Shown here: piece by piece, positions 16,029 through 51,798 of the stretch
How positions within the stretch are numbered: position 1 is the stretch's first letter
How the letters are laid out: every line of letters begins with the position of its first letter
NCBI GenBank assembly: GCA_016181305.1
Contig: JACOZN010000001.1
Location: 3,025-67,024, forward strand
Length of the DNA: 64,000 bases
From: Candidatus Woesearchaeota archaeon
GTDB taxonomy: Archaea; Nanobdellota; Nanobdellia; Woesearchaeales; GW2011-AR4
Reading direction: 5' to 3'
Position numbers and translations under genes: made by a program
Notes under the pieces: generated by a model
What the model was told of the DNA's origin: nothing
Database searches by the model: none
The model's input: only the letters and a program-made list of their open reading frames with translations

Positions 16029-16796
16029 ATGGAATTTGATTTATCTGAAATAAAATTAAGTCATAATGACATAAGAAGAGAGGTAACACTACCAAATCAA
16101 CCTTCTAAAGAGTTGGCAGAGTTTATAGGTATCCTAACTGGTGATGGTTTCATTAACAATTATACTAATAAAAATTCTTATATTATAGAGATTGCTGGAG
16201 ATAGAAACTTGGATAAAGAATACTTGGAAGTTTATATAAAAAATCTTATTAAGAATTTATTCAACATAAACTGCAAAATATACTATAAGAAAGATCAAAA
16301 CACAGCTTATGCTAGATTATTATCTAAGGGAGTTTATAATTACTTACTATCAATAGGATTTAAAGCTGGAAAGAAAGAGCAGATAGGAATCCCAAATTGG
16401 ATAGCAGAAAATAACAGCTTAATGATATCGTTTATTAAGGGTTTAATAGATACTGATGGTTCTTTGATGTTAACAAAAAAGCCATCAAAGAAGTCGCTAT
16501 TTTACCCAATAATCAGTATTAAAGTAAAAAGTAAGATTTTGGTTCAGAAAACTGGAAAGTTTTTAGAGGAATTTGGATTTAGAGTTAATATAATTGAAGA
16601 TGAATTACGCACTGACAAAAGAGGCTATAAAGATACGCTAATTTCTTCTGTAATAATATCTGGAAGAAAAAATTTGGACTTATGGATGGCTAAAATAAAT
16701 TTCAGAAATAAAAGACACTTAGATAAGTACTTGCATTATATTAAAAGTAGAAATATGGGGCGGATGGAAATTTCAGCAACTTTGCGAACGAAGTGA
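16029..16796 (+). CDS. Double-motif LAGLIDADG homing endonuclease, free-standing
   Basis: Two LAGLIDADG motifs: FIGILTGDGFI and FIKGLIDTDGSL. The gene and its 220-nt upstream region are visibly more AT-rich than the flanks. The last 41 nt overlap tRNA-Phe antisense. Confidence 0.8.
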   Translation: MEFDLSEIKLSHNDIRREVTLPNQPSKELAEFIGILTGDGFINNYTNKNSYIIEIAGDRNLDKEYLEVYIKNLIKNLFNINCKIYYKKDQNTAYARLLSKGVYNYLLSIGFKAGKKEQIGIPNWIAENNSLMISFIKGLIDTDGSLMLTKKPSKKSLFYPIISIKVKSKILVQKTGKFLEEFGFRVNIIEDELRTDKRGYKDTLISSVIISGRKNLDLWMAKINFRNKRHLDKYLHYIKSRNMGRMEISATLRTK

Positions 16797-18042: not shown

Positions 18043-19413
18043 TTAATCGTTTTTCTTGATGAAGCCCTTTTCCTTCAAAAGCCTGGCATCTATATTTTTC
18101 GGCTTCTCCAATATTTCTGTAAGCCTTTTTTTGGATTTTTGGTAGGACTCTTCAGACATAAAGCCTAATTTATGGCTTGCCTCAACCGCTTCAAGCTCTT
18201 TCTCTGCCTTTTTTGCTACTCCTATGCGCTTCAAGTCCTTGAGCTCCTGCACCATGCTGTTGAAAGCGCCTGCCAGAGTCCTGAATTCGTCCTTTGATGA
18301 TATTTCCACTCTTGCTTCCATATTGCCGTGCATAACCTCATCAACAGCCTTCTCAAATTTTCCCAGTGACTTTGAGATTGTTGAGTAAATATAAAATCCT
18401 ATTACGCCTGCAAGCACTATCAAAACAATTGCGAAAATCAAAATAGCCAATATCAAATCATGGATTGGCTTGGATATCTGGCCCATTTCAATGTCAACAG
18501 CCAAAATCCATCCCAGCCCCTTGTAATCCTTATAGCCATGCGAATGCGTATGAATAATCAGTTTATCTGCCCCTGTTTGCGGGTCTTTAGCGGTTAATAT
18601 GCCTTCTTTGTCTTTTATCGCTGAAAACAGGCTAAAAGGCTGGAAGATTTCATAATTTCTTGTGGAGAATATAATCCTGCCCTTTTCATCAACCAAAGTG
18701 TATTCTGCGCTGCTGAATTTTTTTTGCGCCTCTGTTTCTCTTATGATGCTGATAATCTCCTCTAAGTTCAGCACTGCTTTTATAACACCTATAAACTCGC
18801 CGTTGCTGTCGTCAATCCTTACGCCTATTGAGGTAGAATAAACATCAGCGCTCTGGTCGTATTTCAGCTCTTCTACATAAATCCCGTCAGATTTCGCCTT
18901 TTGCCACCATTCCTCGTCATCCTGCCTGTAATCGCTTGTTTTTCCTGTCTGGGCGACATTCGCCCCATATTTGTTTGTGGCAAATATCTCGCCATAAAGC
19001 TTATAGCCAAACTTATTTTCGTAGAAATTCGACTTTCGCCTCAATTCTTCAGAAATTTTATTGTCAATAAGCTGCTGCATGAAAGGAGTTATTTCACTTT
19101 TTGGCGCAGAAACCCATTCCAAGTCTTTTTGGTTGATGTAAGACTGCATACCACTTAATTTCTCAAATTCGCTGTTTGACTGGGCTGTAAACCCCATCAA
19201 TTCAGTGTTTTGCGAATAAACTTCAATATCGTTGATTCTTTCATTAATCTCCTTGTCTATCTCCTCAATTGTATGGCGTGTTAACACCAACAAGCCTTCG
19301 CTGGCTGCCTTTTTCAATTCCTTTGAGCTTTCATACATAGGAATAAATATAGCCAAACCGAATAGCAAATAAATTATTAGAAACCCAAGAATCAGCTTTG
19401 TCTGGACTTTCAT
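18043..19413 (-). CDS. Membrane sensor-like protein: TM, Cache-like extracytoplasmic domain, TM, HAMP, short coiled coil; no output domain
   Basis: Two TM helices bracket a periplasmic domain of about 290 aa. The HAMP-like segment is SLGKFEKAVDEVMHGNMEARVEISSKDEFRTLAGAFNSMVQEL. There are no kinase or MCP signalling motifs downstream. Confidence 0.6.
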   Translation of the reverse strand: MKVQTKLILGFLIIYLLFGLAIFIPMYESSKELKKAASEGLLVLTRHTIEEIDKEINERINDIEVYSQNTELMGFTAQSNSEFEKLSGMQSYINQKDLEWVSAPKSEITPFMQQLIDNKISEELRRKSNFYENKFGYKLYGEIFATNKYGANVAQTGKTSDYRQDDEEWWQKAKSDGIYVEELKYDQSADVYSTSIGVRIDDSNGEFIGVIKAVLNLEEIISIIRETEAQKKFSSAEYTLVDEKGRIIFSTRNYEIFQPFSLFSAIKDKEGILTAKDPQTGADKLIIHTHSHGYKDYKGLGWILAVDIEMGQISKPIHDLILAILIFAIVLIVLAGVIGFYIYSTISKSLGKFEKAVDEVMHGNMEARVEISSKDEFRTLAGAFNSMVQELKDLKRIGVAKKAEKELEAVEASHKLGFMSEESYQKSKKRLTEILEKPKNIDARLLKEKGFIKKND

Positions 19414-19977: not shown

Positions 19978-21464
19978 ATGCAACAAAACTTCGAAAGACC
20001 GAAGGATATAAAGCAGGTAAGCGAAACAATCTGGGAGATACCAACCTCATTCAAGAAGGGAATGTTAGTTCCCGCGAGAATTTATGCAACTAAAAAATTG
20101 TTGCATGAAATGGATGATGGAGTTTTTAATCAAGTAACTAATGTTGCTTGTCTTCCCGGAATTCAAAAGTACGCATTCTGCATGCCGGATGGGCACTGGG
20201 GATTTTGAGTAAGTTAATTCTTATTCAACCCTTGACGGTTTTCCCATCGGCGGATCGGATTTGACATTTTTGCTAAAGTATAAGCTTTGCGAAGTCACGT
20301 AATTGCGGTATGCGCCTGGTTACAACTAATCTTACCTATAAAGAAGTCCAGCCAAAACTGAGGGAATTAGTTGACACAATGTTCAAGATAGTCCCGTCAG
20401 GAGTAGGCTCAAGGGGATTTGTTGACGCAAACAAATCCCAGTTCAAGGAAATCATGGAGTATGGCTCGAAATGGTGCGTTGAAAACAATTACGGATGGAA
20501 AGAAGACATGGAAAGGACAGAAGGCTATGGCAGGATTGACTGGGCAGAGCCTGAAAAGGTAAGCTCAAAGGCAATTGAAAGGGGCATGAACCAATTAGGC
20601 ACTTTGGGCTCCGGCAACCATTACTTGGAAATTCAGGTTGTGAAAGCGGAAAACATTTTTGACGGGGAATTGGCAAAAAAGTTCGGCATTGTCGAGCCTG
20701 AGCAGGTTGTTGTTATGGTGCATTGCGGCAGCAGGGGATTTGGCCATCAGATTGGCACAGATTACTTGAGAATTTTTGAAGGAGTAATGAAAAAATACAA
20801 TATTGAGGTTTATGACAGAGAGCTTGCATGCGCGCCTTTCCAAAGCAATGAGGGGCAGGATTATTACAAGGCAATGGCATGCGCAGCCAACATGGCATTT
20901 GCAAACCGCCAGGTCATCTTGCACAGGATAAGGGAAGGCTTTTCAAAAATTTTCAAAACAGAAGCTGAAAAACTTGAGATGCACATGGTTTATGATGTTG
21001 CCCACAATATTGCAAAACTTGAGGAGCATACAATTGACGGGCACAAGAAAAAGCTTGTTGTGCACAGAAAAGGAAGCACAAGGGCATTTCCGCCGCATCA
21101 TCCTGAATTGGCAAAAATATTCAAGGAAACGGGGCAGCCTGTCATTATTGGAGGCAGTATGGAAACAGGAAGCTTTTTGCTTGTCGGCACTCAAAAGGCA
21201 ATGGACGAAACCTTTGGAAGCACTGCTCATGGCTCGGGACGTACAATGTCAAGGGCTGCTGCAAAGCATCAAGTGAGGGGAGAACAATTACAAAGAGACA
21301 TGGAGAAAAGAGGAATTTATGTCAAGGCAACTTCAATGCCCGGGTTGGCTGAGGAAGCTGGATTTGCATATAAGAATATAAATGATGTCATTGATGCCGT
21401 TTCACAGGCGGGAATAAGCAAGCCTGTTGTTGGGTTGAAGCCTGTGGGAAATATTAAGGGTTAA
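19978..21464 (+). CDS. rtcB: RNA-splicing ligase RtcB, interrupted by two BHB introns (exons 19978-20203, 20235-20267, 20300-21464); a 1-nt frame discrepancy remains in the 33-nt middle exon
   Basis: Exon 1 ends ...VACLPGIQKYAFCMPDGHWG, the middle exon encodes YGFPIGG / IGFDI, and exon 3 encodes NCGMRLVTTNL...GSGNHYLEIQ...HCGSRGFGHQ...GSTAHGSGR (RtcB active-site motifs). A GGAGGT Shine-Dalgarno lies 7 nt before the ATG. Confidence 0.8.
20204..20234 (+). other. BHB intron 1 within the rtcB coding sequence (31 nt)
   Basis: Central helix gggg (20198-20201) pairs with ccct (20229-20232). The 3-nt bulges are att and tga, and the inner 9-bp hairpin is ttgagtaag/cttattcaa. Excision creates the codon t|ac (Tyr) and restores HWGYGFPIGG. 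Confidence 0.75.
20268..20299 (+). other. BHB intron 2 within the rtcB coding sequence (32 nt)
   Basis: Outer helix gatt/aatt, central helix tgac (20262-20265) paired with gtca (20294-20297), bulges att and cgt, inner helix of about 10 bp. Excision joins gac at|t aat tgc, giving GFDINCG. Confidence 0.75.
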
Positions 21465-21465
21465 A

Positions 21466-22215
21466 ATGGTTGAAGTTTTGTTTCAAATCCTCATCGCAGT
21501 CCTGATAGTCAGCCTAGTCTCATTGCTGGGAATTTTGATTTTTATGCGCAAGAAAACGCTGAACAGGATTTTATTTTTCCTTGTCAGCTTTGCAGCAGGC
21601 ACGTTGCTCGGCGCAGCATTTCTTGACTTGCTTCCAGAGGCGCTTGAAAACGGCTTTAAAGAAAGCGTTCCTGTTTTTATCTTGCTTGGCATATTATCAT
21701 TTTTCATTCTGGAAAAATTCCTTTACTGGCACCACCACCATGCGGGGCACGAGCATGAGGAAGTTCATGGATTTACATACTTGAACATCGTTGGAGACGC
21801 AATACACAACTTCCTTGACGGCGCTGTCATCGCAATCAGTTTTATGAACAATACTGCGCTTGGCATCATCACAACAATCGCCATAATCGCCCACGAAATA
21901 CCTCAGGAAATAGCAGATTTTTCAATTTTGATTTATGGCGGATTCTCAAAGGCAAAAGCCCTTGTTTATAATTTCCTGACAGCTTTGACTGCAGTGATAG
22001 GGGCTTTGGCTGCTTACTTTTACTCAAGCGCAATAGGGAACTCAACAACATTCCTTACATCTTTTGCGGTTGGGGGCTTTGTCTACATAGCGAGCAGCGA
22101 CTTGATTCCCGAAATCCACAAGGAGAAGGACTTGAAAAAATCCCTTGTACAGCTTGTTTTGCTTGCATCAGGCATATTTTTGATATGGATTGTAGGAGAG
22201 GTGTTCCAGCACTAA
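21466..22215 (+). CDS. ZIP-family divalent metal transporter (ZupT-like)
   Basis: His-rich loop HHHHAGHEHEEVHG and ZIP signatures GDAIHNFLDGAVIA and AHEIPQEIADF. Starts 1 nt after the rtcB stop. Confidence 0.85.
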   Translation: MVEVLFQILIAVLIVSLVSLLGILIFMRKKTLNRILFFLVSFAAGTLLGAAFLDLLPEALENGFKESVPVFILLGILSFFILEKFLYWHHHHAGHEHEEVHGFTYLNIVGDAIHNFLDGAVIAISFMNNTALGIITTIAIIAHEIPQEIADFSILIYGGFSKAKALVYNFLTALTAVIGALAAYFYSSAIGNSTTFLTSFAVGGFVYIASSDLIPEIHKEKDLKKSLVQLVLLASGIFLIWIVGEVFQH

Positions 22216-22216
22216 A

Positions 22217-22663
22217 ATGAACATAAACAATGACAAGAAAAGATACAAATTTCTAGAGGATGTTGCAATTGCCGACATTGCATATGAAGCCTACGGCAAG
22301 GACTTGAACGAGCTGTTCGAGAATGCCGCCCTCGCAGTCTTTGAGCTTAGCGCTGACTTAAAAACAGTTGATGCAAAAGAGAAAATTGAATTTGGGCTTG
22401 AGAATGAAAAAATTGACAACTTATTGTACGATTTCCTATCTGAAATTTTGTTTTTGAAAGACTCAAAGTACATGGTTTTCAATAAGGTTAAAGTTGAAAT
22501 TAAGCAAAACAAGAAATATAATTTGAAAGCAATTGTTGAAGGCGATAATATAAACCCCCAAAAACAGCGCTTGGAAAATGACATAAAAGCTGTTACAATG
22601 CACATGTTTGAGGTCAAGAAAGAGAAAAATATGTGGAAGGCTGTTGTTGTTGTGGATATTTAA
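22217..22663 (+). CDS. Archease (RtcB activator)
   Basis: 148 aa with YKFLEDVAIADIAYEAYGKDLNELFENAA at the N-terminus and ...AVTMHMFEV near the C-terminus, both typical of archease. Confidence 0.8.
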   Translation: MNINNDKKRYKFLEDVAIADIAYEAYGKDLNELFENAALAVFELSADLKTVDAKEKIEFGLENEKIDNLLYDFLSEILFLKDSKYMVFNKVKVEIKQNKKYNLKAIVEGDNINPQKQRLENDIKAVTMHMFEVKKEKNMWKAVVVVDI

Positions 22664-35135: not shown

Positions 35136-35162
35136 ATAAATAACTTCTGTTTTTGAATCTTT

Positions 35163-51689: not shown

Positions 51690-51798
51690 CGCCAGGGACG
51701 GGAATTCCGTGGCATACATTTCGAACCCGTGTTACATTCGGGTGAATGTAAACCAGATCTTAAGTCTGGCATCTTAAGCCTGACTCGACCACCCTGGC
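51690..51798 (-). tRNA. tRNA-Leu(UAA), class II, with one 16-nt intron in the T-loop (51704-51719)
   Basis: Acceptor GCCAGGG/CCCTGGC, anticodon arm CCAGA-CTTAAGA-TCTGG, long variable arm TTACATTC-ACCC-GAATGTAA, T-arm ACGGG-TTCGAA[intron]T-CCCGT. The intron obeys the BHB rule (TTCG pairs with CGGA). Confidence 0.85.

What the first reader, a model, noticed from the sequence alone, without database searches (positions are those of the whole stretch)
20190..20312. rtcB, the tRNA-splicing ligase gene, is itself interrupted by two bulge-helix-bulge introns
The ORF track splits RtcB into 19978-20208 (ending ...CMPDGHWGF stop) and 20310-21464 (starting MRLVTTNL).

Protein evidence:
- Deleting 20204-20234 (31 nt) turns cac tgg gga t|ac ggt ttt ccc atc ggc gga into HWGYGFPIGG.
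- Deleting 20268-20299 (32 nt) turns gga ttt gac at|t aat tgc ggt atg cgc into GFDINCGMRL.
- Both are conserved RtcB motifs (compare Pyrococcus horikoshii MPDGHQGYGFPIGG...GIGYDINCGVRL, quoted from memory).

Structural evidence, independent of the protein argument: each insert folds as a canonical archaeal BHB.
- Intron 1: central helix gggg/ccct, 3-nt bulges att and tga, 9-bp inner hairpin.
- Intron 2: outer helix gatt/aatt, central helix tgac/gtca, bulges att and cgt, inner helix of about 10 bp.

Cutting after the second bulge nucleotide on each strand gives exactly the junctions predicted from homology. To my knowledge, BHB introns in protein-coding genes are known essentially only from crenarchaeal cbf5. 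Here the host gene encodes the ligase that must reseal BHB-cut exons, so RtcB protein would be needed to mature rtcB mRNA. That is a self-referential dependency or feedback loop.
Basis: partly seen in the sequence, partly recalled or inferred. Interest (0 to 1): 0.92.

Follow-up and report, generated by a model that had tools for sequence, protein, structure and literature searches.

The report
Mini-introns inside the RNA ligase gene
The gene for the RNA-joining enzyme RtcB in this tiny DPANN archaeon is broken by two short tRNA-type (bulge-helix-bulge) introns, as it is in many of its relatives, so the enzyme would have to mend its own message; this particular copy also lacks 46 bases and cannot give a full protein as assembled.

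Summary
Each carries a 4-bp central helix flanked by 3-nt bulges, exactly at the junction predicted by protein homology.

Comparison with about 70 related Woesearchaeota/Nanoarchaeota loci makes the BHB-intron reading strong.
- Close relatives have rtcB with no insert, or with the same or other 12-41-nt inserts at nine positions.
- 20 of 23 representative inserts show the exact BHB geometry at the homology-defined junction. The other three have 3 of 4 central pairs.
- Removing the inserts restores a full RtcB of at least 485 aa in 17 of 17 other loci.
- Central helices covary with synonymous exon changes, and dN/dS is about 0.05.

In this window, removing both inserts does not rejoin the two ORFs. 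The middle exon is 33 nt instead of 79 nt, with 46 nt (15 conserved codons plus 1 nt) absent at 20254|20255. No relative shares this, so it is either a local assembly error or a very recent inactivating deletion.

No transcript evidence could be found. No report of rtcB introns was found in the searchable literature, which names only cbf5 and one 5'UTR. Insertion sites cluster tightly, and free-standing LAGLIDADG genes often lie next to intron-bearing alleles, which hints at homing.

The parts
19978..20203 (+). rtcB exon 1: Met1 to the first base of the Tyr codon (Y70 in P. horikoshii numbering). An AAGGAGG Shine-Dalgarno-like motif lies just upstream.
   Evidence: 88% identical to residues 1-76 of the intron-less relative P0001.
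20204..20234 (+). Intron 1, 31 nt, family 'A', relaxed BHB. Central helix GGGG (20198-20201, exonic) / CCCT (20229-32). Bulges ATT (20202-04) and TGA (20233-35). Inner 9-bp hairpin 20205-13 / 20220-28 with loop TTAATT. The ORF1 reading frame meets a TGA here (20206-08).
   Evidence: The same site and family occur in L002, L004, L007, L017, L019, L021, L024, L052, L082, L094 and L059. 99% of cells are paired, against 35-65% for slid controls, and 2 pairs carry compensatory changes.
20235..20267 (+). rtcB exon 2, truncated: 33 nt where relatives have 79 nt. The junction of the 46-nt gap is at 20254|20255 (GGCGGA|TCGGA). It removes V77-G91 plus the first base of the I92 codon.
   Evidence: None of about 70 related loci shares the gap. 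The missing piece is not elsewhere in the window.
20268..20299 (+). Intron 2, 32 nt, family 'D', full hBHBh' motif. Outer helix GATT 20258-61 / AATT 20301-04. Central helix TGAC 20262-65 / GTCA 20294-97. Bulges ATT 20266-68 and CGT 20298-20300. Inner helix 20269-73 / 20289-93 and 20275-78 / 20285-88, with loop TATAAG. It splits the Ile96 codon between the metal ligands D95 and C98.
   Evidence: The same site and family occur in L013, L052 and L081-L084. Variants at the same site occur in L041 and L094.
20300..21464 (+). rtcB exon 3: last base of the I96 codon, N97, C98 ... to the stop codon. It contains ORF2 (20310-21464).
   Evidence: It matches Pfam PF01139 relatives at up to 95% identity. 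dN/dS is 0.05-0.08.
22217..22663 (+). Archease gene, encoding the RtcB activator. It is intact and is separated from rtcB by a ZIP transporter gene (21466-22215).
   Evidence: PF01951, E = 5e-40.

Best explanation
The locus is the rtcB gene (RNA 3'-phosphate/5'-OH ligase) of a Woesearchaeota-type DPANN archaeon. It is interrupted by two mini-introns of the archaeal bulge-helix-bulge class, each belonging to a family found at the same codon position in rtcB of related species.

Inferred mechanism:
- The pre-mRNA folds into BHB motifs whose 5' strand of the central helix is exonic.
- The tRNA-splicing endonuclease EndA cuts after the second nucleotide of each 3-nt bulge.
- RtcB, helped by archease, joins the exon ends and circularises the introns.
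- New RtcB can therefore only be made if RtcB protein is already present.

The introns are most likely mobile or selfish insertions tolerated at two hot spots in the active-site-coding region, rather than a designed regulator.

In this window the 79-nt middle exon has lost 46 nt, so the assembled sequence cannot encode a full RtcB even after splicing. This is either a local assembly error at a strain-variable hot spot or a very recent inactivating deletion.
For: Shown:
1. Both inserts have a 4-bp central helix and 3-nt bulges at the junctions required by homology.
2. Relatives with 85-95% identical RtcB carry no insert. Others carry inserts of 12-41 nt at nine positions: H67|W68, W68 tg|g, Y70 t|ac, I92 a|tc, G93 g|gc, D95 g|ac, D95|I96 and I96 at|t, plus inteins at N97|C98.
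3. 20 of 23 representative inserts have 4 of 4 central pairs exactly at the homology-defined junction, and the other three have 3 of 4. At 80 offset controls only 0-6 of the 23 do.
4. Central helices covary with synonymous exon changes: TGAC/GTCA, CGAC/GTCG, CGAT/GTCG; GGTT/AACC, GATT/AATC; CCAT/ATGG, TCAT/GTGA; GGTC/GACA, GGCC/GGCA.
5. Removal at BHB-rule junctions restores a full-length RtcB ORF carrying CMPDGHWGYGFP[IV]GG[VL]AAFD...ISPGGIGFDINCGMRL in 17 of 17 other loci. Thirteen are 485-490 aa; three are longer at the C terminus and one has an over-long predicted start.
6. The inserts carry in-frame stops or have lengths not divisible by 3. Loops vary in length and sequence while stems stay paired, at 99-100% against 19-65% for slid controls.
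7. dN/dS is 0.05-0.08 between this gene and relatives with and without inserts.
8. The archease gene is intact nearby.
9. The 46-nt gap is unique to the window.

Inferred: cleavage by EndA and ligation by RtcB, from established archaeal tRNA and cbf5 splicing (PMC2738675, PMC5829648).
Against: - There is no RNA evidence. No exact spliced product of 10 intron-bearing loci exists among 15 billion proteins, and no full-length 100% match was found to the spliced AR20 protein.
- EndA is not in the 64-kb window.
- Intron 1 lacks an outer helix, and site-B introns have a G.A in the central helix. Cleavage therefore needs a broad-specificity EndA, which was not examined here.
- Within-family covariation is modest because the sequences are close: 2 pairs with double changes in family A and 1 in family D.
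- In this window the gene is out of frame after splicing.
Confidence: 0.85

Rival explanations
1. The 46-nt gap is an assembly or consensus artefact. The real genome has a normal 79-nt exon 2, and the organism makes functional RtcB after removing the two introns.
For: - The gap is unique among about 70 loci.
- dN/dS of the rest of the gene is as low as in relatives, and no other defect is present.
- Archease is intact.
- The region is a strain-variable hot spot where populations mix alleles with and without inserts.
Against: - Other long genes in the window are intact (MetRS, AlaRS, SMC), so the assembly is not generally error-prone.
- The shared repeat at the gap ends is only about 5 nt (GGCGG), too short to collapse a de Bruijn graph.
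- Reads are not available.
Confidence: 0.45
2. The 46-nt gap is real. This strain's rtcB was very recently inactivated, or is a minority allele captured by the assembler. The introns are genuine, but here they sit in a fresh pseudogene.
For: - As assembled, the spliced frame stops 21 codons after the second junction.
- Fifteen highly conserved residues are absent.
- The gap is flanked by GGCGG direct repeats, as in slippage or microhomology deletions.
Against: - RtcB is the only RNA ligase expected to join EndA-cut tRNA exons (established knowledge), so loss should be lethal unless a second copy exists.
- There is no sign of relaxed selection elsewhere in the gene.
- No second rtcB is present in the window.
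Confidence: 0.4
3. A -1 shift at GGA|TC (re-reading the A as ATC) or another recoding event yields a 15-residue-shorter RtcB, ...PIGG-I-GFDINCG....
For: A -1 shift at 20254/20255 would recreate exactly GG-I-GFDINCG (sequence).
Against: - There is no slippery heptamer.
- The deleted hairpin is conserved in all RtcBs compared.
- No relative shows such a shortened form.
Confidence: 0.03
4. The inserts are not spliced at the RNA level. They are DNA insertions that leave rtcB as a pseudogene, as a two-piece protein, or as a gene read through by translational bypass.
For: No transcript evidence was found. Annotators call the pieces 'partial' or 'hypothetical'.
Against: - Exact BHB geometry in 20 of 23 inserts at nine positions.
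- ORF restoration in 17 of 17 other loci.
- dN/dS about 0.05 across deeply diverged (dS 0.5-1.5) intron-bearing genes.
- A C-terminal fragment starting at MRL would lack D95 and C98, which are the metal ligands.
- No target-site duplications are visible.
Confidence: 0.04

Closest known systems
BHB intron in crenarchaeal cbf5 pre-mRNA (Watanabe 2002; Yokobori 2009, PMC2738675)
   Same: - A short intron inside a protein-coding gene, defined by a bulge-helix-bulge motif at the exon-intron boundaries.
- Presence/absence polymorphism among related species.
- Presumed EndA cleavage plus RNA ligase joining.
   Different: - The host gene is rtcB, the ligase itself, not cbf5.
- The lineage is DPANN (Woesearchaeota/Nanoarchaeota), not Crenarchaeota.
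- Up to two introns occur per gene, at nine positions in two clusters.
- Sizes are 12-41 nt.
- No experimental splicing data exist.
Non-canonical and multiple tRNA introns of Archaea (hBHBh' and relaxed HBh'/hBH motifs; Marck and Grosjean 2003; PMC5829648)
   Same: - The same structural motif and the same cut positions (after the second bulge nucleotide).
- Mini-introns as short as about 12 nt.
- Relaxed forms that need a broad-specificity EndA.
   Different: The substrate is an mRNA coding region. The exonic half of the helix is constrained by codons, and it covaries through synonymous sites.
HAC1/XBP1 mRNA splicing (IRE1 cut, RtcB or Trl1 ligation)
   Same: Non-spliceosomal removal of a small intron from an mRNA by an endonuclease plus a tRNA ligase. 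The reading frame changes on splicing.
   Different: The endonuclease is IRE1 recognising two stem-loops, not EndA on a BHB. The spliced message encodes a transcription factor, not the ligase.
Inteins and homing-endonuclease-associated introns at conserved active-site codons, including 'collaborative homing' of a free-standing HEG with a neighbouring intron (from memory: Bonocora and Shub 2009; Zeng et al. 2009)
   Same: - Insertions cluster in the most conserved, catalytic part of the gene.
- Inteins lie at N97|C98 in L026, L032, L035, L036, L038, L040, L045 and L049.
- A LAGLIDADG gene abuts intron-bearing rtcB alleles.
- Exon identity is elevated next to the intron.
   Different: The introns are too small to encode anything and are removed by host enzymes. 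No cleavage specificity of the LAGLIDADG protein is known. The association is statistically weak (p = 0.05).

Membership tests
Archaeal BHB (EndA-dependent) intron | Two 3-nt bulges on opposite strands, separated by a 4-bp helix, at the exon-intron boundaries | tested here: met
   Intron 1 has GGGG/CCCT with bulges ATT and TGA. Intron 2 has TGAC/GTCA with bulges ATT and CGT. 20 of 23 inserts across relatives meet this exactly, against 0-6 at offset controls.
Archaeal BHB (EndA-dependent) intron | Flanking helices on both sides (strict hBHBh') | tested here: inconclusive
   Intron 2 has a 4-bp outer helix and a 9-bp inner helix, so the feature is met. Intron 1 has a 9-bp inner helix but no contiguous outer helix. 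The MFE fold offers only an ACUG/CGGU alternative with a 4-nt bulge, so it is a relaxed form.
Archaeal BHB (EndA-dependent) intron | Cutting after the second bulge nucleotide and joining the ends gives the functional mature sequence | tested here: inconclusive
   Each junction locally restores a conserved motif in the window, and the rule restores a full RtcB ORF in 17 of 17 other loci. The window's own ORF is not restored because of the 46-nt gap in exon 2.
Archaeal BHB (EndA-dependent) intron | Orthologues lacking the insert at exactly that position | tested here: met
   L001, L006, L008, L009, L011, L012, L014, L016, L018, L020 and L027 are intron-less at 85-95% protein identity.
Archaeal BHB (EndA-dependent) intron | Base pairing maintained by compensatory change | tested here: met
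   Within families there are 2 pairs (A) and 1 pair (D) with double changes, and 99-100% of cells are paired. Across introns at one site, the central helix covaries with synonymous exon changes. The sample is small and the sequences are related.
Archaeal BHB (EndA-dependent) intron | Spliced RNA and excised (circular) intron observed; cleavage by the cognate EndA | not testable with these tools
   No RNA data are available. Exact spliced proteins are absent from the protein collection. No EndA gene is among the Pfam-scanned ORFs of at least 100 aa in the window.
cbf5-type pre-mRNA intron | Located in the cbf5 (pseudouridine synthase) gene of Crenarchaeota | tested here: not met
   The host gene is rtcB (PF01139; PDB 1uc2, E = 3e-167). 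The lineage is Woesearchaeota/Nanoarchaeota.
Intein | An in-frame insertion encoding a self-splicing protein domain, next to Cys/Ser/Thr | tested here: not met
   The inserts are 31 and 32 nt, not multiples of 3, and the ORF1 frame meets a stop inside intron 1. True intein-sized insertions of about 1.5 kb occur in other loci at N97|C98.
Group I / group II self-splicing intron | Conserved ribozyme core | tested here: not met
   There is no Rfam family hit anywhere in the window at gathering thresholds, and the inserts are only 31-32 nt.

The most novel reading that the evidence does not exclude
rtcB in Woesearchaeota may be a battleground for homing elements.
- Free-standing LAGLIDADG endonucleases (and intein-borne ones) would target two short, highly conserved active-site-coding stretches of rtcB.
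- BHB mini-introns would persist and spread because any insert within those 8-nt and 20-nt windows destroys the target site, while the host's own EndA/RtcB removes it harmlessly from the mRNA.
- This would amount to 'collaborative homing' with an enzyme-spliced intron.

A by-product would be an obligate self-maturation loop for the ligase, which may also act as a positive-feedback gate on splicing capacity.
Probability: 0.3. Interest if true: 0.85.

Novelty: new variant of a known kind. Interest (0 to 1): 0.72.

Why it matters
In the literature searched here, enzyme-spliced (BHB) introns in archaeal mRNAs are reported only for cbf5 and one 5'UTR.

Here a second protein-coding host appears, in a different superphylum. 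It recurs in dozens of species, with up to two introns per gene, and it sits in the gene for the ligase that must finish the splicing reaction.

This has several consequences:
- RtcB synthesis would depend on pre-existing RtcB. That epigenetic-like dependency is directly testable.
- Standard gene callers truncate or split these genes into 76-aa plus 384-aa pieces labelled 'partial' or 'hypothetical'. Completeness and metabolic inferences for DPANN genomes are therefore affected.
- The clustering of sites, the adjacent LAGLIDADG genes and the co-conversion-like flanks offer a natural system for studying how BHB introns are gained and move, which is an open question.

Tried and rejected
1. Missing exon piece elsewhere in the window (trans-splicing idea). 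tblastn, a regex search and blastn-short found only chance hits. The best, 35138-35159 on the minus strand, is AT-rich intergenic DNA between two plus-strand ORFs. Rejected.
2. The source genome in other assemblies, to test the 46-nt gap. Exact look-ups of ORF2, ORF1 and the neighbouring ZIP gene found nothing. A metagenome scan with the intron-D 3' end found 4 rtcB loci, all with a full exon 2.
3. Transcript-level evidence. A homology search with the spliced AR20 protein gave no 100% full-length hit. Exact look-up of 10 predicted spliced proteins found none.
4. The gap as a BHB-like mis-splice. At the two possible placements the central helix is at best 3 of 4 pairs (worked out by hand from the sequences). 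Not supported.
5. Other split genes in the window. A crude BHB plus ORF-fusion scan gave about 340 motif hits per strand and no convincing case. Candidate 19324-19348 (minus strand) extends an MCP-like gene into low-complexity sequence. Pfam showed no adjacent ORFs sharing a family.
6. Other copies of intron families A, B or D outside rtcB in the window. None were found.
7. Rfam scan of the window: no hits.
8. Alternative splice combinations. Intron 1 5' site joined to intron 2 3' site removes 96 nt, and removing intron 2 alone was also considered. None restores the frame (frame arithmetic on the sequence).

Full report
**Observation**

The window has 41% G+C, one tRNA and no Rfam hit. rtcB is split into two ORFs:
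- ORF1, 19978-20208, ends ...CMPDGHWGF*.
- ORF2, 20310-21464, starts MRLVTTNL.

- Removing 20204-20234 (31 nt) gives HWGYGFPIGG.
- Removing 20268-20299 (32 nt) gives GFDINCGM.

The BHB elements are as described.
- Intron 1 has GGGG/CCCT, bulges ATT and TGA, and a 9-bp inner hairpin.
- Intron 2 has an outer GATT/AATT helix, a central TGAC/GTCA helix, bulges ATT and CGT, and a 5+4-bp inner helix.
- The MFE folds reproduce these helices. The 131-nt region folds better than shuffles (z = -2.6).
- Intron 1 has no contiguous outer helix, so it is a relaxed BHB. Intron 2 is a full hBHBh' motif.

The two restored motifs are not in the same frame.
- ORF2 lies in frame +2 relative to ORF1, and 63 nt are removed. 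The doubly spliced sequence reads ...YGFPIGGSDLTLIAVCAW... and terminates.
- Against P. horikoshii RtcB (1uc2, E = 3e-167), 15 residues (V77-G91) are absent between PIGG and IGFDINCG.
- In every relative, exon 2 is 79 nt. Here it is 33 nt, with 46 nt missing at 20254|20255.

The missing piece is not elsewhere in the window. The gap is unique among about 70 loci, including four metagenome contigs that carry the same intron 2. Several points bear on its origin:
- Other long genes in the window are intact.
- ORF2 shows dN/dS of 0.05-0.08.
- The source genome could not be found in other assemblies.

Whether this is a local assembly error or a very recent deletion therefore stays open.

**Comparative evidence**

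Protein searches show hundreds of close relatives from Woesearchaeota/Nanoarchaeota MAGs. Some are full length at about 489 aa. Many are 384-aa fragments starting at the same MRL.

Reading the DNA of 80 species-representative loci plus 15 further contigs gave the following picture:
- Intron-less genes: L001, L006, L008, L009 and others.
- Genes with 12-41-nt inserts at H67|W68, W68 tg|g, Y70 t|ac (the window's intron 1 site), I92 a|tc, G93 g|gc, D95 g|ac, D95|I96 and I96 at|t (the window's intron 2 site).
- Inteins of about 1.5 kb at N97|C98.
- Combinations seen: none, A, B, D, A+D, B+D, A+C, B+C, and others.

**Test of the BHB rule**

For 23 representative inserts, I fixed the junction by protein homology. 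I then asked whether the four bases ending 2 nt before the 5' cut pair with the four bases ending 2 nt before the 3' cut.
- 20 of 23 have 4 of 4 pairs. The three site-B introns have 3 of 4, with a conserved G.A.
- At 80 offset combinations only 0-6 of the 23 do.
- The exonic strand of the helix changes through synonymous substitutions, and the intronic strand follows: TGAC/GTCA, CGAC/GTCG, CGAT/GTCG; GGTT/AACC, GATT/AATC; CCAT/ATGG, TCAT/GTGA; GGTC/GACA, GGCC/GGCA.
- Within families A and D, 99-100% of cells pair, against 19-65% for slid partners. There are a few double changes, and the loops are variable.

Removing inserts at BHB-rule junctions gives a full RtcB ORF with the canonical motif in 17 of 17 other loci. 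Most products are 485-490 aa. For AR20 the rule even corrects an apparent extra Lys. The inserts contain stops or shift the frame, so they cannot be translated through.

**Interpretation**

These are BHB introns in a protein-coding gene, presumably cut by EndA and joined by RtcB with archease. Archease is intact at 22217-22663. That RtcB must mature its own mRNA follows from established biochemistry, but it is inferred.

No RNA-level evidence could be obtained, and EndA is not in the window. The relaxed motifs imply a broad-specificity EndA. PMC5829648 links an L3 loop found in EndAs of diverse DPANN lineages to increased tRNA gene disruption.

**Mobility hints**

- Sites fall in two tight clusters, spanning 8 nt and 20 nt, in the most conserved part of the gene.
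- A free-standing LAGLIDADG_3 gene abuts the rtcB start in L017, L022, L046, L084 and L089, and lies on the opposite strand in L059. It is also present in L091, L041 and L035. All of these are intron-bearing: 6 of 25 against 1 of 26, p = 0.05.
- Exon DNA within about 33 nt of intron D is 93-96% identical among genes that are otherwise 75-80% identical. Intron-less genes are flat at about 80%.

This resembles co-conversion during homing, but it is only suggestive.

**Novelty**

Seven full-text searches and seven papers read found no report of introns in rtcB or of mRNA BHB introns in DPANN. Papers from 2018-2025 cite only cbf5 and the HVO_1309 5'UTR. The mechanism is a known kind. What is new is the host gene (the ligase itself), the lineage, the multiplicity and clustering of sites, and the possible link to a homing endonuclease.

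**Verdict**

- Interest is high for the phenomenon, tempered by the lack of RNA data and by the defect in this window.

Noticed in passing
L017 815-1621; L022 1332-2138; L046 1330-2136; L084 (reverse-complemented) 174-980; L089 329-1153; L091 1-794; L041 6-581; L059 1365-2063 (opposite strand); remnant in L019 1502-1573: A free-standing LAGLIDADG_3 homing-endonuclease-like gene lies immediately upstream of rtcB, overlapping its start codon in L089. Full copies were found only next to intron-bearing alleles: 6 of 25 against 1 of 26 intron-less loci, and that one hit is a weak 28% match (Fisher p = 0.05).
   Followed up: partly
window 16029-16796 (+): A 255-aa LAGLIDADG_3 ORF lies 3.2 kb upstream of rtcB. 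It belongs to a different family from the rtcB-adjacent one and is 47% identical to an ORF in L020, an intron-less locus.
   Followed up: partly
L026, L032, L035, L036, L038, L040, L045, L049 (about 1.5-kb insertion before the Cys98 codon): Intein-sized in-frame insertions lie at N97|C98 of rtcB, 7 nt downstream of the window's intron 2 site. L035, L036 and L038 carry both mini-introns and the intein.
   Followed up: no
L013, L052, L081-L084, exon DNA around the intron D site: Exon sequence within about 33 nt of intron D is 93-96% identical between loci whose genes are otherwise about 75-80% identical. Intron-less loci show a flat 78-85%. This looks like a co-conversion tract.
   Followed up: partly
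L003 and L007 (CCCGGAGGAA|TTTAAACCTTAG|TCGGG); L090: A 12-nt insert splits the I92 codon. It has a 5-bp outer helix and a 4-bp central helix but no inner helix, which puts it among the shortest BHB-type introns.
   Followed up: partly
window 20254|20255: The right end of the 46-nt gap (a|tc of the I92 codon, allowing the 1-nt slide) coincides with the site-C intron junction seen in L003, L007 and L090. It could be coincidence (roughly 10-15%) or a trace of an imprecise intron loss.
   Followed up: partly
window 21466-22215: A ZIP zinc-transporter gene sits between rtcB and archease. In several relatives (L086, L089, L090) archease directly follows rtcB.
   Followed up: no
L005, L008, L009, L014, L016, L017 and others (GTDB record titles): Many records titled 'uncultured Methanosarcinales archaeon' (binchicken MAGs) carry rtcB that is 89-92% identical to the Woesearchaeota gene. 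The organism labels look wrong.
   Followed up: no
L055, L058, L060, L065 and others: MAG contigs labelled as bacteria (Oscillatoriales, Latescibacterota, Zixibacteria, Thermoleophilia) encode archaeal-type RtcB at 59-63% identity, without inserts.
   Followed up: no
window 51706-51797 (-): The only tRNA found in 64 kb is tRNA-Leu(TAA), 92 nt. ARAGORN may miss archaeal tRNAs with non-canonical introns.
   Followed up: no
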